From the human T2T-CHM13v2.0 reference genome, Homo sapiens, in the NCBI RefSeq assembly GCF_009914755.1, contig NC_060934.1: DNA of 64,000 nt; one strand, written 5' to 3'. Below are positions 200-8,432 of the stretch, piece by piece (the stretch's first letter is position 1; each line of letters opens with the position of its first letter). The notes below the pieces were generated by a model, which ran no database searches, had not been told where the DNA came from, and saw only the letters and a list, made by a program, of their open reading frames with translations. Both the position numbers and the translations under genes were made by a program.

Positions 200-1200
200 G
201 CAGCCGACCAGGGCGTGTCAGGTCACTGCCAAGGGAAGCAGCAGCGGAAACCGTCGCCTCCGGCTTAGGCTGCGGAGCGGGAACCCCATTCTCTGAGTTA
301 TGTTTCTGCCTAAACACGCAGAACAAAAGAGTTCGTGGCTGCAAGGGTGGCGCGCGGTAGTATTTCTTGCTAATAAAAGGTCCCCACAGGGACATTTTTG
401 CTATGACTGCAGGCGTGGCCAGTCTCCCTGCACAGCTTCCGGGAAGAGGTGGGGATAGGAGGCTCGCCCCGGGGAAGGTCACGCTCGGGGTCCCCAGACC
501 AGGTCTCCGCACGCCCCTGCCCCGTCGCCTCCCGGGAGCGGCTGCAGTCCCCGTTGGCTGCAGACGGGCAGACACCCGAAGTGTCCGCGCCGGCAGCCGG
601 ACCGCAAGCGAGGAAGAGCGAACCGCGCTCCCGGGCCTGGCCGAAGCGCTTCCTGTGCCAGGTTTCCGGCTCCGGGTCCCGGGAGGAGGATCGCGGGCCA
701 GAGGCGGAGCCGCCGCCCTGCCGCGACTTTCAGACTCCGACCATGGCCTCGCGCTGGTGGCGGTGGCGGCGCGGCTGCTCCTGGAAGCCGGCGGCGCGGA
801 GCCCCGGGCCCGGCTCCCCCGGCCGTGCGGGACCGTTGGGGCCGAGCGCCGCTGCCGAAGTCCGCGCGCAGGTGAGGTTGGGAGGCGCGCGCCCGGCGGG
901 GCTCAGAGGTCACGGCTCCAATGACAGCAGTGGGCGGAATGAATGGGAGCGGGGAGCACGTGCGTCGCGACGCGGGGGCGCGCGGGGTAGCTCCGGGGTA
1001 GCTCCGGGGTGGGACTCCGGAGCTGAGGGGTGCCCGCGGTGGGACGGAGCCGCGCGTTGGACTGAAGTAGGGGCGCCCTACACGGGGTTGCAGAAAGCGG
1101 TGTCCTGGGGACCCCGGGAGCGTTTTGGGGGGTGGAGAAAGCGGTGGGATCCGTGTCCTGGGGGAAGCGCAGGAGCGATCAGATTGACCGCTGCTATATG
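200..1200 (+). promoter_or_regulatory. PDSS1: CpG island / PDSS1 promoter and exon 1 region
   Basis: Very GC- and CpG-rich, spans the ATG; ETS-like CTTCCGG/CCGAAGT motifs, TTCCGGGAA at 438-446, E-box CACGTG at 957-962; strong Kozak ccgaccATGG at 743. Confidence 0.85.
743..871 (+). CDS. PDSS1: PDSS1 exon 1 CDS (MASRWWRWRR...EVRAQ, Arg-rich mitochondrial-presequence-like)
   Basis: 129 nt, Kozak ATG, donor CAG|GTGAGG; matches the known PDSS1 N-terminus. Confidence 0.97.
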
Positions 1201-1875
1201 GACAAGGTTAATTAAGCCTGGAGAGCGACTGCAGCTATTTACTTTGGAGTTAGAGGAAGACAGATCTTGCCTGAAATTTTAGAGCCAAAGTGCTCAGAGC
1301 TCTCTCCGAGAAACGGAGGATCGAATCGGCCTCGGAATAGTCCGAAAAGGTCTTGTGGAGAATGCAGGGCTGGTGCTAGGGTGGACCGGACCTTAGTTGT
1401 CCAGCAGTGGCTTCGGGAGGAGAGCACACCTGGATGGGGCTGGAATGACACTGGAAGGAGAAAGGCCCGAGGCCGTCAGGAGGAGAGAAACCCTGGAGTC
1501 ATCTAAAGTCAGAATCTCAGTGATAGCCCATTCTTTCAGGGTCTCCTCTGCTGCCTTTGGGTTCCGATCTCCTTTTTCTCCCTTTCTGGTCAGTTTAGCC
1601 CCTGTAAATGGACACTGTGAGCCCTTCTGCACTTTGTAATGATTCTCAGTGTGCCATGGGGTAGGCCCATGCTATTAGCATAACCGTGCAAAATCTATGG
1701 ACTCACTGTTACTTAAGTTTATTTGAATTTAGTACTCTTTTAATTCAGATTTGGTATACTTTATGTGTCCGTGTTCTCATCAAACATCATTTCCCAGTAT
1801 GAAGTATATAACACTTATAAATATCTACTTTGTACCAAAGTAGATGCGTATCACAAATTATCCAAAACAAGGCTT

Positions 1876-3330
<1,455 letters not shown>

Positions 3331-3470
3331 TTTGATTCTTACCCAGCACTTTCTCTTTAGCTGAGCGTGGTGGCTCACGCCTGTAATCCCAACAGTTTGG
3401 GAGGCCGAGGCAGGAGAATCCCTTTAGCTCAGGAGTTCGAGACCAGCCTGGGCCACTTAGTGAGACCTCC

Positions 3471-5721
3471 TGATACGGTTTGGCTCTGTATGCCCACCCA
3501 CATCTATCTCGAATTGTAATCCCCAATTACATTTGGGGACCAGGGAGGGTCAAGGGAGGGACCAGGTGGAGGTAATTGGATCATGGGGGTGGATTCCCCC
3601 ATGCTGTTCTCATGATAGGGAGTTCTCACAAGATCTCCTGGTTTTATAAGTGTTTGGTAGTTCCTCCTGTGTTCATTCTGTCTCCTGCCGCCTTGTGAAG
3701 AAGGTGCTTGTTTCTCCTTCTCCTTCTTCCACCATGATTCTAAGTTTCTGAGGCCTCCCCAGCCATTCAGAACTGTGAGTCAATTAAACCTCTTTCCTAT
3801 AATTATAAATTGCCCAGTCATGGGTAATTTCTTTATAGCAGTGTGAGAATGGACCAATACAGATAATTGGTACCAAAGTAGTTGGCATTGATATAAGATA
3901 CCTGAGAATGTGGAAATTACTTTGGAACTGGGTAACAAGCAGAGGTTGGAATAGTTTGGAGGGCTCAGAAGAACAAAGGAAGATGTAGGAAAGTTTGGAA
4001 ATTCCTAGAGTCTTGTTGAATGGCTTTGACCAAAATGCTGAAAGTGATATGGATGATGAAGTCCAGGCTGAGGTGGTCTCAGATGGAGATGAGGAGCTTC
4101 CTGGGAACTGGGCAAAGGTCACTCTTGCTATGCTTTAGCAAAGAGACTGGTGGCATTTTGCCCCACCCTAGAGATCTGTGGAACTTTGAGCCTGAGAGAG
4201 ATGATCTGAAATTGGAACTTAAATTTAAAGGGGAAGCAGAGCATAAACGTTTGGAAAATTTGCAGCCTGAAGATGTGATAGAAAAGAATTTTCTGGGGAG
4301 GAATTCAAGCTGGCTGCAGACATTTGCATAAGTAACAAGGAGCCGAATGTTAATAGCCAAGAGAATGGGGAAAATGTCTCCAGAGCATGTCAGAGACCTT
4401 CTCTGCAGCCCCTCCCATCACAGGCCAGGAGGCCTAGGAGGGAAAAATGGATTCATGGGCTGGGCCCAGGGCCCTGCTGCTCTGTGCAAGAGCAGCCTTG
4501 GGACTTGGTGCCCTGCTTCCCAGCCGTAGCTAAAAGGGGCCAAGGTACAGCTTGGGCCATTGCTTCAGAGGGTATAAGCCCCAAGCCTTGGTGGCTTCCA
4601 TGTGCTGCTGAGCCTGCAAGGTGCACAGAAGACAACAATTTGGGAACTTCTGCCTAGATTTCAGAGGATGTATGGAAATGCCTCAATGCCCAGGCAGAAG
4701 TCTGCTGAAGGGGGGAGAACCCTCATGGAGAACCTCTGTTAGGACAGTGCAGAAAGGAAATGTGGGGTTGCAGCCCCCACACGGAGTCCCTGCTGGGGCA
4801 CTGCCTAATGGAGCTGTGAAAGGAGGGCCACCGTGCTCTAGACCCCAGAATGGTAGGTCCACCAACAGCTTCCACCGTGCACCTGGAAAAGCTGCAGGCA
4901 CTCAATGCCAGCCCATGAGAATAGCAGTGGGGGTTGAACCCTGCAAAGCCACAGAGGCAGAGCCACCCAAGTTCTTGGGAGCCCACCCTTTGCATCAGTG
5001 TGACCTAGATGTGAGACATGGAGTCAAAGATCATTTTGGAGCTTTAAGTAATGACTGCCCTGCTGGGTTTGGACTTGCATGAGGCCTGTAAGCCCCTTCG
5101 TTTTGGCCAATTTCTACCATTTGGAATGGGAACATTTAACCAATGCCTGTACCCCCATTGTATCTTGGATGTAACTAACTTGTTTTTGATTTTACAGGTT
5201 CATAGGCGGAAGGGACTTGACTTGTCTCAGGTAAGACTTTGGACTTGGACTTTTGAGTTAATGCTAGAATGAGTTAAGACTTTTGAGGACTGTTCGGAAG
5301 GAATGATTGGTTTTGAAAAATGAGGATATGAGATTTGGGAGGAGCAAGGGGCAGAACGATATGGTTGGTTCTGTGTCTCTACCCAAATCTCATCTCAAAT
5401 TTTAATCCCCATGTGTCAAAGGAGGGCCTATGTGGAGGTAATTGGATCCTGGGGGCAGATTCCCCCATGCTGTTCTTGTTATAGCGAATTCTTATGAGAT
5501 CTGATGGTTTTATAAGTGATTGGTAGTTCCTTCTGTGTTCATTCTCCTTCCTGCTGCCTAGTGAAGAAGGTGCCTTGCTTTCCCTTTTCCTTCTGCCATG
5601 ATTGTAAGTTTCTTGAGGCCTCCCTAGCCGTTTGGAACTGTGAGTCAGTTACACCTCTTTCTTTTATAAATTACCCAGTCTTGGGTATTTCTTTATAGCA
5701 ATGTGAAAACGTACTAATACA
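3471..5721 (+). mobile_element. Full-length THE1 (THE1D-like, ERVL-MaLR) element: 5' LTR 3471-3861, internal 3862-5356, 3' LTR 5357-5721
   Basis: Two similar LTRs (tgatacggtttgg...aataca and cgatatggttgg...aataca), typical MaLR internal sequence, polypurine tract before the 3' LTR, 5-bp TSD CCTCC/CCTCG. Confidence 0.9.
5198..5230 (+). CDS. PDSS1: PDSS1 exon 2 (VHRRKGLDLSQ), derived from THE1 internal sequence
   Basis: 33 nt, phase 0/0; branch point TAACTAAC 5172-5179, acceptor tttacag, donor CAG|GTAAGA; peptide present in the 415-aa human PDSS1 as I recall it. Confidence 0.93.
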
Positions 5722-5732
5722 CCTCGTTTCTA

Positions 5733-5981
<249 letters not shown>

Positions 5982-7714: not shown

Positions 7715-7779
7715 ATACCCTATATTAATCTTGTGAAGCATTTAACATCTGCCTGTCCAAATGTATGTCGTATATCACG
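7715..7779 (+). CDS. PDSS1: PDSS1 exon 3 (IPYINLVKHLTSACPNVCRIS)
   Basis: 65 nt, tttatag acceptor, CG|GTAAGT donor, frame continuity. Confidence 0.95.
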
Positions 7780-8323: not shown

Positions 8324-8432
8324 GTTTCATCACACAACCCCAGACAGTAAAACACACAGTGGTGAAAAATACACCGATCCTTTCAAACTCGGTTGGAGAG
8401 ACTTGAAAGGTCTGTATGAGGACATTAGAAAG
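8324..8432 (+). CDS. PDSS1: PDSS1 exon 4 (FHHTTPDS...YEDIRK)
   Basis: 109 nt, cccag acceptor, AAG|GTGAGT donor. Confidence 0.96.

What the first reader, a model, noticed from the sequence alone, without database searches (positions are those of the whole stretch)
5172..5236. PDSS1 coding exon 2 is an exonised piece of a THE1 retroelement
Seen: the 33-nt exon (VHRRKGLDLSQ) lies inside the internal region of a sense-oriented full-length THE1, about 125 nt before the 3' LTR. It has a textbook branch point TAACTAAC and acceptor tttacag. From memory of the THE1-int consensus (ccttgtctcagATGAGactttgg), this copy reads ctcagGTAAGactttgg, so point mutations appear to have created the donor. Inference: an anthropoid-primate-specific 11-aa basic insert next to the mitochondrial presequence of an essential CoQ10 enzyme. 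It could alter import, cleavage or abundance, and it is skippable in frame. I recall rodent Pdss1 joining ...RAQ directly to IPY..., which needs checking.
Basis: partly seen in the sequence, partly recalled or inferred. Interest (0 to 1): 0.85.

Follow-up and report, generated by a model that had tools for sequence, protein, structure and literature searches.

The report
PDSS1 exon 2 from a retroelement
The 33-base second coding exon of the human coenzyme-Q enzyme gene PDSS1 is a piece of an old LTR retroelement that became an exon through a point mutation, a clear but ordinary case of a mobile element adding 11 amino acids to a protein.

Summary
PDSS1 exon 2 (window 5198-5230, 33 nt, VHRRKGLDLSQ, phase 0-0) lies in the internal part of a complete 2251-bp LTR element (3471-5721). 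That element split an Alu, so its insertion is primate-specific.

The exon region belongs to a high-copy human repeat (at least 5858 first-look candidates, copies 86-88% identical). The acceptor, branch-point motif, 33-nt length and open frame are already present in most other copies. The GT donor is not: +1 is A in 27 of 29 copies, and genome-wide the G context occurs twice against 90 for A.

Gorilla and gelada PDSS1 carry the peptide. 21 non-primate mammals, including rat and mouse, join exon 1 directly to exon 3. Two human processed pseudogenes contain exon 2. One is shared with Old World monkeys, so inclusion predates the ape/monkey split.

The insert lies 66 residues before the catalytic domain and inside a presequence that MitoFates predicts is cleaved at residue 77. 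It is probably a tolerated presequence extension.

Open points:
- New World monkeys and tarsier were not seen.
- One white-rhinoceros model has a similar 11-aa insert, which is unexplained.
- The name THE1 could not be tested against a repeat library.

This is a new member of a known kind, of moderate interest.

The parts
732..871 (+). PDSS1 exon 1 (coding from 743); ends ...VRAQ, phase 0
   Evidence: Hub annotation; translation
3360..3470 (+). Left part of the Alu that the LTR element split
   Evidence: Rfam Metazoa_SRP match 3360-3471, E=1.3e-9, below gathering score. Flank 3340-3470 has 62 blastn hits in the window.
3466..3470 (+). Target-site duplication, left copy (CCTCC)
   Evidence: Read; matches 5722-5726 (CCTCG) at 4 of 5 positions
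3471..3861 (+). 5' LTR (391 nt, TG...CA)
   Evidence: Global alignment with the 3' LTR: 56 mismatches in 362 aligned sites, JC K=0.173; direct repeats
3862..5356 (+). Internal region of the element (1495 nt); the longest stop-to-stop frame overlapping it is 156 aa
   Evidence: Its 3' part (5000-5340) is a high-copy repeat.
5172..5179 (+). Branch-point-like motif TAACTAAC, 18-25 nt before the acceptor
   Evidence: CTAAC kept in 21 of 29 other copies
5180..5197 (+). Pyrimidine-rich tract and AG acceptor (TTGTTTTTGATTTTACAG)
   Evidence: AG present in 27 of 29 other copies
5198..5230 (+). PDSS1 coding exon 2, 33 nt, VHRRKGLDLSQ = residues 44-54
   Evidence: 27 of 29 other copies keep 33 nt and an open frame here. 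Present and contiguous with exons 1 and 3 in two retrocopies.
5231..5236 (+). Donor GTAAGA; G at +1 and A at +3 are copy-specific
   Evidence: +1 is A in 27 of 29 copies and +3 is G in 23 of 29. Genome-wide, 2 sites have G at +1 and 90 have A.
5357..5721 (+). 3' LTR (365 nt; first base now C, ends CA)
5722..5870 (+). Right part of the split Alu; 5722-5726 is the right copy of the target-site duplication
   Evidence: Flank 5722-5900 has 41 blastn hits in the window. In 17 other Alu copies it continues 18-37 nt after the end of the left-flank match.
7715..7779 (+). PDSS1 exon 3 (begins IPYINLVKH...)
   Evidence: Hub annotation

Best explanation
A full-length, sense-oriented MaLR-type LTR retroelement (THE1-like by anatomy, copy number and age) inserted into an Alu in PDSS1 intron 1 in an early anthropoid or catarrhine ancestor.

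Its internal region already carried a near-ideal branch point, a pyrimidine tract with an AG acceptor and, 33 nt further on, an open frame ending in CAG followed by AT. An A-to-G change at the next base made a GT donor. The +3 position is A here against G in most copies, giving CAG|GTAAGA, which matches 8 of 9 positions of the consensus donor as I recall it.

The 33-nt, phase 0-0 cassette was then spliced between exons 1 and 3. It adds 11 mostly basic residues (44-54) to the long, acid-poor N-terminal targeting region, 66 residues before the polyprenyl synthase domain. The exon was already in germ-line mRNA before apes and Old World monkeys split, and it is part of the RefSeq-selected transcript today.

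Shown: the origin, the splice-site history, the frame, the presence in catarrhines and the absence in 21 other mammals. Inferred: the insert sits in the part that is removed on import (MitoFates predicts the cut after residue 77), so it was tolerated as a nearly neutral lengthening of the presequence rather than as a new function of the mature enzyme.
For: Anatomy of the element and its insertion into an Alu.

The exon region is a dispersed repeat: (at least 5858 candidates; 40 of 40 scored match; 39 others at 86-88% identity).

Acceptor, branch point, length and open frame pre-exist in the family: (27, 21, 27 and 27 of 29).

The donor is copy-specific: A at +1 in 27 of 29; 2 against 90.

Frame and skippability.

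Species distribution.
- Gorilla P0005 and gelada P0006 have the peptide.
- 21 non-primate models join exon 1 to exon 3 directly.

Retrocopies:
- A full-length copy on contig 9 (mRNA 1-1580, 102 mismatches in 1542) and a partial copy on contig 2 both carry exon 1-2-3 contiguously.
- Retrocopy-derived models of gorilla, chimpanzee, gibbon and Rhinopithecus share 8 derived residues in 192 informative columns. That retrocopy, and hence exon inclusion, predates the ape/Old World monkey split.
- Both retrocopies have C at the site of 5199, as do 24 of 29 element copies, where the gene now has T.

Position in the protein:
- The Pfam PF00348 match starts at residue 120.
- The N-terminal 82-97 residues are basic and acid-poor in 12 species (net +8 to +15).
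- MitoFates gives 77(MPP) for Q5T2R2 in supplement files 5 and 13 of PMC13672106.
Against: - No repeat library was available, so THE1 as opposed to the related MST family is not tested. The LTR divergence (K=0.16-0.17) fits the 55 My quoted for THE1 in PMC1794541 Table 1 only roughly.
- A predicted white-rhinoceros PDSS1 (P0018) has VWRPKGLRMSQ at the same junction, 7 of 11 identical to the human exon. The horse model P0122 lacks it. The human element cannot be orthologous because it sits in an Alu, but I could not see the rhinoceros locus.
- No New World monkey, informative tarsier or clean lemur model was seen. The Microcebus model P0020 lacks the insert but is an odd fusion.
- TargetP2 calls human PDSS1 'No mTP' in the same supplement. 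No experimental N-terminus of PDSS1 turned up in that paper's 18 supplementary files.
- The R at -2 of the predicted cleavage site is Q in rat and mouse.
- Present-day inclusion level was not measured. A siamang isoform X2 (P0007) lacks the exon.
Confidence: 0.85

Rival explanations
1. The insert is functional rather than a passenger. It changes import efficiency, the processing site or the stability of PDSS1, or it stays on the mature enzyme and was fixed by selection in catarrhines.
For: - The exon has been kept open and in frame in gorilla, gelada and human.
- It has strong splice signals and is in the selected RefSeq transcript (hub table).
- It adds three basic residues and one acidic one directly after the RAQ motif that ends exon 1 in many mammals.
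- TargetP2 finds no transit peptide, so the MitoFates cut at 77 is not secure.
- The same N-terminal region also lost 4 residues (AVCC-type) in catarrhines relative to tarsier, lemur and other mammals, so the region was remodelled twice.
Against: - Eleven residues over about 30-50 My give no power to show constraint. Gelada already differs (R to W), and the gene changed A to V after the retrocopies formed.
- 21 other mammals do without the insert.
- No experiment bears on it.
Confidence: 0.2
2. The 11-residue segment is older than the primate element, or arose more than once. A related MaLR internal fragment in the same intron was exonised in other mammals too, as the white-rhinoceros model suggests.
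For: - Rhinoceros P0018 has an 11-aa insert at the same exon junction, 7 of 11 identical to the human exon.
- The family provides a ready acceptor, branch point and open 33-nt frame in 21-27 of 29 copies, so one base change is enough.
Against: - The human exon sits in an element with its own LTRs and target-site duplication, inside a primate Alu.
- No second copy of the element is detectable in the 64-kb window at E up to 0.01.
- Horse and 20 other non-primates lack the insert.
- The rhinoceros protein is a 'PREDICTED' model and its exon 1 end is also unusual, so a homology-guided model is possible.
Confidence: 0.1
3. Exon 2 is a minor or artefactual annotation and does not normally contribute to the protein.
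For: - It is skippable in frame.
- A siamang isoform model lacks it (P0007).
- No expression data were available here.
Against: - It is in the RefSeq-selected transcript (hub table) and in the UniProt Q5T2R2 sequence printed in file 7 of PMC13672106.
- Two independent ancient retrocopies were made from mRNA that contained it.
- The donor matches 8 of 9 consensus positions (consensus recalled), and acceptor and branch point are strong.
Confidence: 0.04

Closest known systems
Exonisation of MaLR / ERV internal sequences in human genes (survey by van de Lagemaat et al. 2006, PMC1794541; passages and Table 1 read)
   Same: Sense-oriented LTR element in an intron. Splice sites inside the internal region are used by the host mRNA. 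THE1-int, MST-int and MLT1-int were among the families analysed.
   Different: That work is a genome-wide survey. I saw no mention of PDSS1 in the passages read, and its additional data files could not be opened. Here the exon is coding, in frame, in the selected transcript, and its donor can be traced to a single copy-specific base.
MaLR-derived exon of SUPT16H (PMC3647538; search listing and start of the abstract only)
   Same: A new exon derived from a mammalian apparent LTR retrotransposon in a housekeeping gene.
   Different: I read only the title and the start of the abstract, so details are not compared. The PDSS1 exon is a constitutive-looking coding exon of the main isoform.
Alu exonisation (general knowledge, recalled, no call)
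   Same: A mobile element in an intron carries near-splice sites, and one or two point changes turn it into an exon. It is primate-specific.
   Different: Alu exons are mostly antisense, alternatively spliced at low level and often disruptive. This one is a sense LTR-internal fragment, 33 nt, frame-preserving, and apparently the default form.

Membership tests
THE1-type MaLR LTR retroelement | Two LTRs of roughly 350-390 bp in direct orientation around a 1-2 kb internal region; total about 2.3 kb | tested here: met
   LTRs of 391 and 365 nt, internal part 1495 nt, total 2251 nt. An internal consensus of 1-2 kb for MaLRs is stated in PMC1794541; the 2.3 kb figure is recalled.
THE1-type MaLR LTR retroelement | TG...CA LTR ends and a short target-site duplication | tested here: met
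   The 5' LTR runs TG...CA. The 3' LTR runs CG...CA, with the first base changed. Flanking CCTCC and CCTCG match at 4 of 5 positions, and the two flanks rejoin into one Alu.
THE1-type MaLR LTR retroelement | Thousands of dispersed copies in the human genome, moderately diverged | tested here: met
   At least 5858 first-look candidates for 341 nt of the internal region; 39 scored copies at 86-88% identity. PMC1794541 Table 1 gives 9,019 THE1 copies with internal sequence.
THE1-type MaLR LTR retroelement | No retroviral genes in the internal region | tested here: inconclusive
   The longest stop-to-stop frame overlapping the internal region is 156 aa. No protein-family scan of these frames was run.
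THE1-type MaLR LTR retroelement | Best match to the THE1 / THE1-int consensus rather than MST or MLT1 (Repbase/Dfam) | not testable with these tools
Indirect evidence: insertion into an Alu and LTR K=0.16-0.17, against ages of 55 My (THE1) and 75 My (MST) in PMC1794541.
Transposable-element exonisation | Exon and both splice sites lie wholly within the element | tested here: met
   5172-5236 lies inside the internal region 3862-5356 and aligns to 29 of 29 other copies examined.
Transposable-element exonisation | A splice site was created or improved by mutation after insertion | tested here: met
   Donor +1 is G here, against A in 27 of 29 copies; genome-wide 2 against 90. The order of events relative to insertion is inferred.
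Transposable-element exonisation | The exon is present in mature mRNA | tested here: met
   It is in the RefSeq-selected transcript (hub table). Two processed pseudogenes carry exons 1-2-3 joined. No RNA-seq was available.
Transposable-element exonisation | The exon is absent in lineages that lack the insertion | tested here: inconclusive
   It is absent in 21 non-primate protein models, but the white-rhinoceros model P0018 has a similar insert. No orthologous DNA of any other species could be read.

The most novel reading that the evidence does not exclude
The internal region of this MaLR family is a ready-made 33-nt coding cassette: branch point, acceptor and open frame are present in most copies and one base is missing from a donor. 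On this reading it was recruited independently into the same intron of PDSS1 in catarrhine primates and in rhinoceroses. In primates the basic insert retuned import or processing of the rate-setting CoQ10 side-chain enzyme.
Probability: 0.08. Interest if true: 0.65.

Novelty: new member of a known kind. Interest (0 to 1): 0.4.

Why it matters
Most exons born from mobile elements are weakly included, alternative and often harmful. Here one became part of the default coding sequence of an essential mitochondrial enzyme.

The steps can be read from the genome itself. The element supplied the acceptor, the branch point and an open frame. One base made the donor. Two old retrocopies preserve the exon's early state.

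It is a clean teaching case. It also has practical use for clinical reading of PDSS1 variants: residues 44-54 are lineage-specific and probably not part of the mature enzyme. It also matters when mouse models, which lack the exon, are compared with patients. It does not open a new kind of biology.

Tried and rejected
- A solved structure of PDSS1: searching the PDB sequences with exon 5 gave 0 hits.
- Earlier notes of this scan were not open to the session.
- A second, older copy of the element in the 64-kb window, which could be the counterpart of the rhinoceros insert: none at E up to 0.01 with two blastn settings.
- New World monkey or tarsier N-termini: three protein searches returned none that is informative.
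  - Tarsier P0013 and tree shrew P0031/P0027 start downstream of the junction.
  - Pygathrix P0132 joins exon 1 to a late exon.
  - Hipposideros P0059, Cynocephalus P0019 and Nannospalax P0042 carry unrelated extra sequence at the junction. They were left out of the count of 21.
- Literature: PDSS1 with THE1 gave 1 paper, unrelated (a MER44B 15 kb upstream). PDSS1 with 'exoni' gave 28 papers, of which 20 were listed and none is about exonisation by title; the one opened concerns tandem donors. PDSS1 with 'retrotranspos' gave 4, none relevant. PDSS1 with 'primate-specific' gave 1, unrelated by title. The six-term search listed no paper holding PDSS1.
- Reviews on CoQ gave nothing on the PDSS1 presequence.
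- The MTSviewer supplement lists PDSS1, but I could not interpret its columns.
- A bacterial promoter/terminator scan of 5100-5300 was irrelevant to a human intron and found nothing.
- The other Rfam matches in 3300-5900 were all below gathering score and are not claimed as genes: the mir-3135, mir-1285 and mir-1268 matches lie in the split Alu, and the MIR1888 match (5313-5405, E=0.6) lies inside the element.

Full report
**What is at the coordinates**

PDSS1 exon 2 is window 5198-5230, 33 nt. Exon 1 contributes 129 coding bases, so the exon is read GTT CAT AGG CGG AAG GGA CTT GAC TTG TCT CAG = VHRRKGLDLSQ, residues 44-54 of a 415-aa protein. Leaving it out joins ...VRAQ to IPYINL... in frame.

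Upstream lie TAACTAAC (5172-5179) and TTGTTTTTGATTTTACAG (5180-5197). Downstream lies GTAAGA, so the donor reads CAG|GTAAGA. This matches 8 of 9 positions of the textbook donor, which I recall rather than took from a call.

**The surrounding element**

Direct repeats 85% alike flank the region. A global alignment sets the element at 3471-5721 (2251 bp), with these parts:
- 5' LTR 3471-3861 (391 nt, TG...CA);
- internal part 3862-5356 (1495 nt);
- 3' LTR 5357-5721 (365 nt, CG...CA).

The two LTRs differ at 56 of 362 aligned sites. That gives JC K=0.173, or 0.156 without CpG sites. The longest stop-to-stop frame overlapping the internal part is 156 aa.

**The element sits in an Alu**

- The left flank (3340-3470) has 62 blastn hits elsewhere in the window and the right flank (5722-5900) has 41.
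- 20 other copies are hit by both flanks. In 17 of these the right flank continues 18-37 nt after the left-flank match ends. In the other 3 the hits overlap by 40 nt.
- Rfam places 3360-3471 on Metazoa_SRP at E=1.3e-9, below the gathering score, as expected for a 7SL-derived Alu.
- The five bases on either side (CCTCC, CCTCG) are the target-site duplication.

Alu elements are confined to primates (established knowledge). The insertion, and with it the exon, cannot therefore be older than primates.

**The exon is repeat sequence**

Window 5000-5340 found at least 5858 first-look candidates in the same genome. 40 were scored and all matched: the window itself and 39 others at 86-88% identity. 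I compared 29 of them position by position.

| Feature in the 29 other copies | Count |
|---|---|
| AG acceptor present | 27 |
| CTAAC of the branch motif present | 21 |
| 33-nt length kept | 27 |
| Frame open (among the 27 with 33 nt) | 27 |
| Donor +1 (5231) | A 27, T 1, G 1 |
| Donor +3 (5233) | G 23, A 4, T 2 |

An exact 24-nt pattern over the whole genome gives 2 sites with G at +1: this exon and a copy on contig 1 that has a 5-nt deletion in the exon equivalent. It gives 90 sites with A at +1, and reversed controls give 0.

So the element brought the acceptor, the branch point and the frame, and the donor is a change of this copy. No other copy of the element lies in the 64-kb window.

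**Which species have the peptide**

Searches with exon 5 and with the gorilla N-terminus returned named mammalian PDSS1 models (sequences).

- With the peptide: gorilla P0005 (identical) and gelada P0006 (VHRWKGLDLSQ).
- Exon 1 joined directly to exon 3 in 21 non-primates: rat, Mus spicilegus, guinea pig, beaver, rabbit, marmot, deer mouse, otter, pig, red deer, cow, vampire bat, elephant, dunnart, horse, horseshoe bat, naked mole-rat, false killer whale, sloth, wallaby and grey seal.
- Also without it: a mouse-lemur fusion model and a siamang isoform X2.
- Left out as uninformative or aberrant: tarsier, tree shrew, Pygathrix, Hipposideros, Cynocephalus and Nannospalax.
- No New World monkey was returned, and the 415-aa primate cluster itself did not appear.

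The exception is white rhinoceros P0018. It has VWRPKGLRMSQ at the same junction, 7 of 11 identical to the human exon. I cannot explain this without the rhinoceros locus. It cannot be orthologous to the human exon. It might be an independent MaLR exonisation or a homology-guided gene model.

**Retrocopies as fossils**

The human genome holds two processed copies of PDSS1 mRNA:
- a full-length one on contig 9 (mRNA 1-1580, 102 mismatches in 1542 sites, K=0.069);
- a partial one on contig 2 (mRNA 77-479, K=0.104).

Over the same stretch, 77-479, the two have 33 and 39 mismatches, so they are of similar age. Both carry exons 1, 2 and 3 joined without a gap.

Protein models derived from the contig-9 copy exist for gorilla, chimpanzee, gibbon and the colobine Rhinopithecus. 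They share 8 derived residues in 192 informative columns. The retrocopy, and therefore inclusion of exon 2 in germ-line mRNA, predates the split of apes and Old World monkeys.

Both retrocopies read GCT (Ala) where the gene now reads GTT (Val). C is also the state of 24 of 29 element copies. The retrocopies thus preserve an earlier state of the exon that is closer to the element.

**Age**

The LTR divergence of 0.16-0.17 corresponds to about 40-55 My under commonly used primate rates. The rates are recalled and the figure is rough. PMC1794541 Table 1 gives 55 My for THE1 and 75 My for MST. This fits a THE1-type element inserted near the base of the anthropoids, but it does not prove that New World monkeys share it.

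**Where the insert sits in the protein**

- The Pfam polyprenyl synthase match begins at residue 120.
- Before the conserved DPF motif, the N-terminus is basic and acid-poor in all 12 species checked (net +8 to +15). The exon adds three basic residues and one acidic one.
- Supplementary files 5 and 13 of PMC13672106 list Q5T2R2 as 'possessing mitochondrial presequence' with a MitoFates cut at 77(MPP), but TargetP2 'No mTP'. Residue 76 is R, so the predicted cut is ISRF|HH.
- PDSS1 is absent from the remaining files of that paper, so I found no experimental N-terminus there.

On this prediction the 11 residues are removed with the presequence. That would explain why the insertion was tolerated and could become the default form. 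This step is inference.

**Comparison with what is known, and verdict**

Use of splice sites inside MaLR and other ERV internal regions by host mRNAs has been surveyed (PMC1794541, passages read). A MaLR-derived exon in SUPT16H has been described (PMC3647538, listing only).

I found no paper that names PDSS1 exon 2 as element-derived. Catalogues in supplementary files could not be searched, and paper reading closed before I could open those of PMC1794541.

The finding is correct and well resolved. It is a new member of a known kind and of moderate interest. The family name THE1, the anthropoid range, the present inclusion level and any effect on import remain to be tested.

Noticed in passing
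L018-type protein P0018 (Ceratotherium simum), residues about 44-54: A predicted white-rhinoceros PDSS1 has an 11-aa insert, VWRPKGLRMSQ, at the exon 1/3 junction. It is 7 of 11 identical to the human element-derived exon. The horse model lacks it.
   Followed up: partly
L031/L032 (own genome contig 9, about 5.09 Mb, minus strand): A full-length processed pseudogene of PDSS1 covers mRNA 1-1580 at 91% identity counting gaps. It extends upstream of the annotated transcription start. It is modelled as a protein in gorilla, chimpanzee, gibbon and Rhinopithecus databases.
   Followed up: yes
L033/L034 (own genome contig 2, about 44.17 Mb, plus strand): A partial PDSS1 retrocopy covers mRNA 77-479 at 88.8% identity. 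About 80 nt further on lies a 143-nt piece equal to exon 6 at 98.6% identity. That is much less diverged than the rest, which suggests a later conversion or a composite origin.
   Followed up: no
L041 (own genome contig 1, 112165079-112165102): This is the only other copy of the repeat in the genome with the exact context and a GT (GTGAGA) at the donor site. It has an intact acceptor but a 5-nt deletion in the exon equivalent (28 nt). Whether it is spliced into any transcript was not checked.
   Followed up: partly
window 8324-8432 (PDSS1 exon 4): Catarrhine PDSS1 (human, gorilla, gelada and the retrocopies) lacks 4 residues (AVCC-type) that tarsier, mouse lemur and all other mammals seen have just after HHTTP. 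This is a second lineage-specific change of the N-terminal region, next to the predicted MPP site.
   Followed up: partly
window 3780-3790 and 5645-5655: The 5' LTR, which is sense to PDSS1 and upstream of exon 2, still reads ATTAAA where the 3' LTR reads GTTACA. If this is the element's polyadenylation hexamer (recalled, not tested), the gene must read through an intact signal in intron 1.
   Followed up: no
window 5194-5230: The hub table lists another transcript with this exon starting at 5194. The two bases before 5194 are TT, not AG, so this is more likely a transcript end or an alignment artefact than an alternative acceptor.
   Followed up: no
window 743-1600 (P0127): The protein database holds a 277-aa frame that starts upstream of the PDSS1 ATG, runs in frame through exon 1 and reads on into intron 1. 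Similar read-through models exist in other mammals (P0130, Cynocephalus P0019).
   Followed up: no
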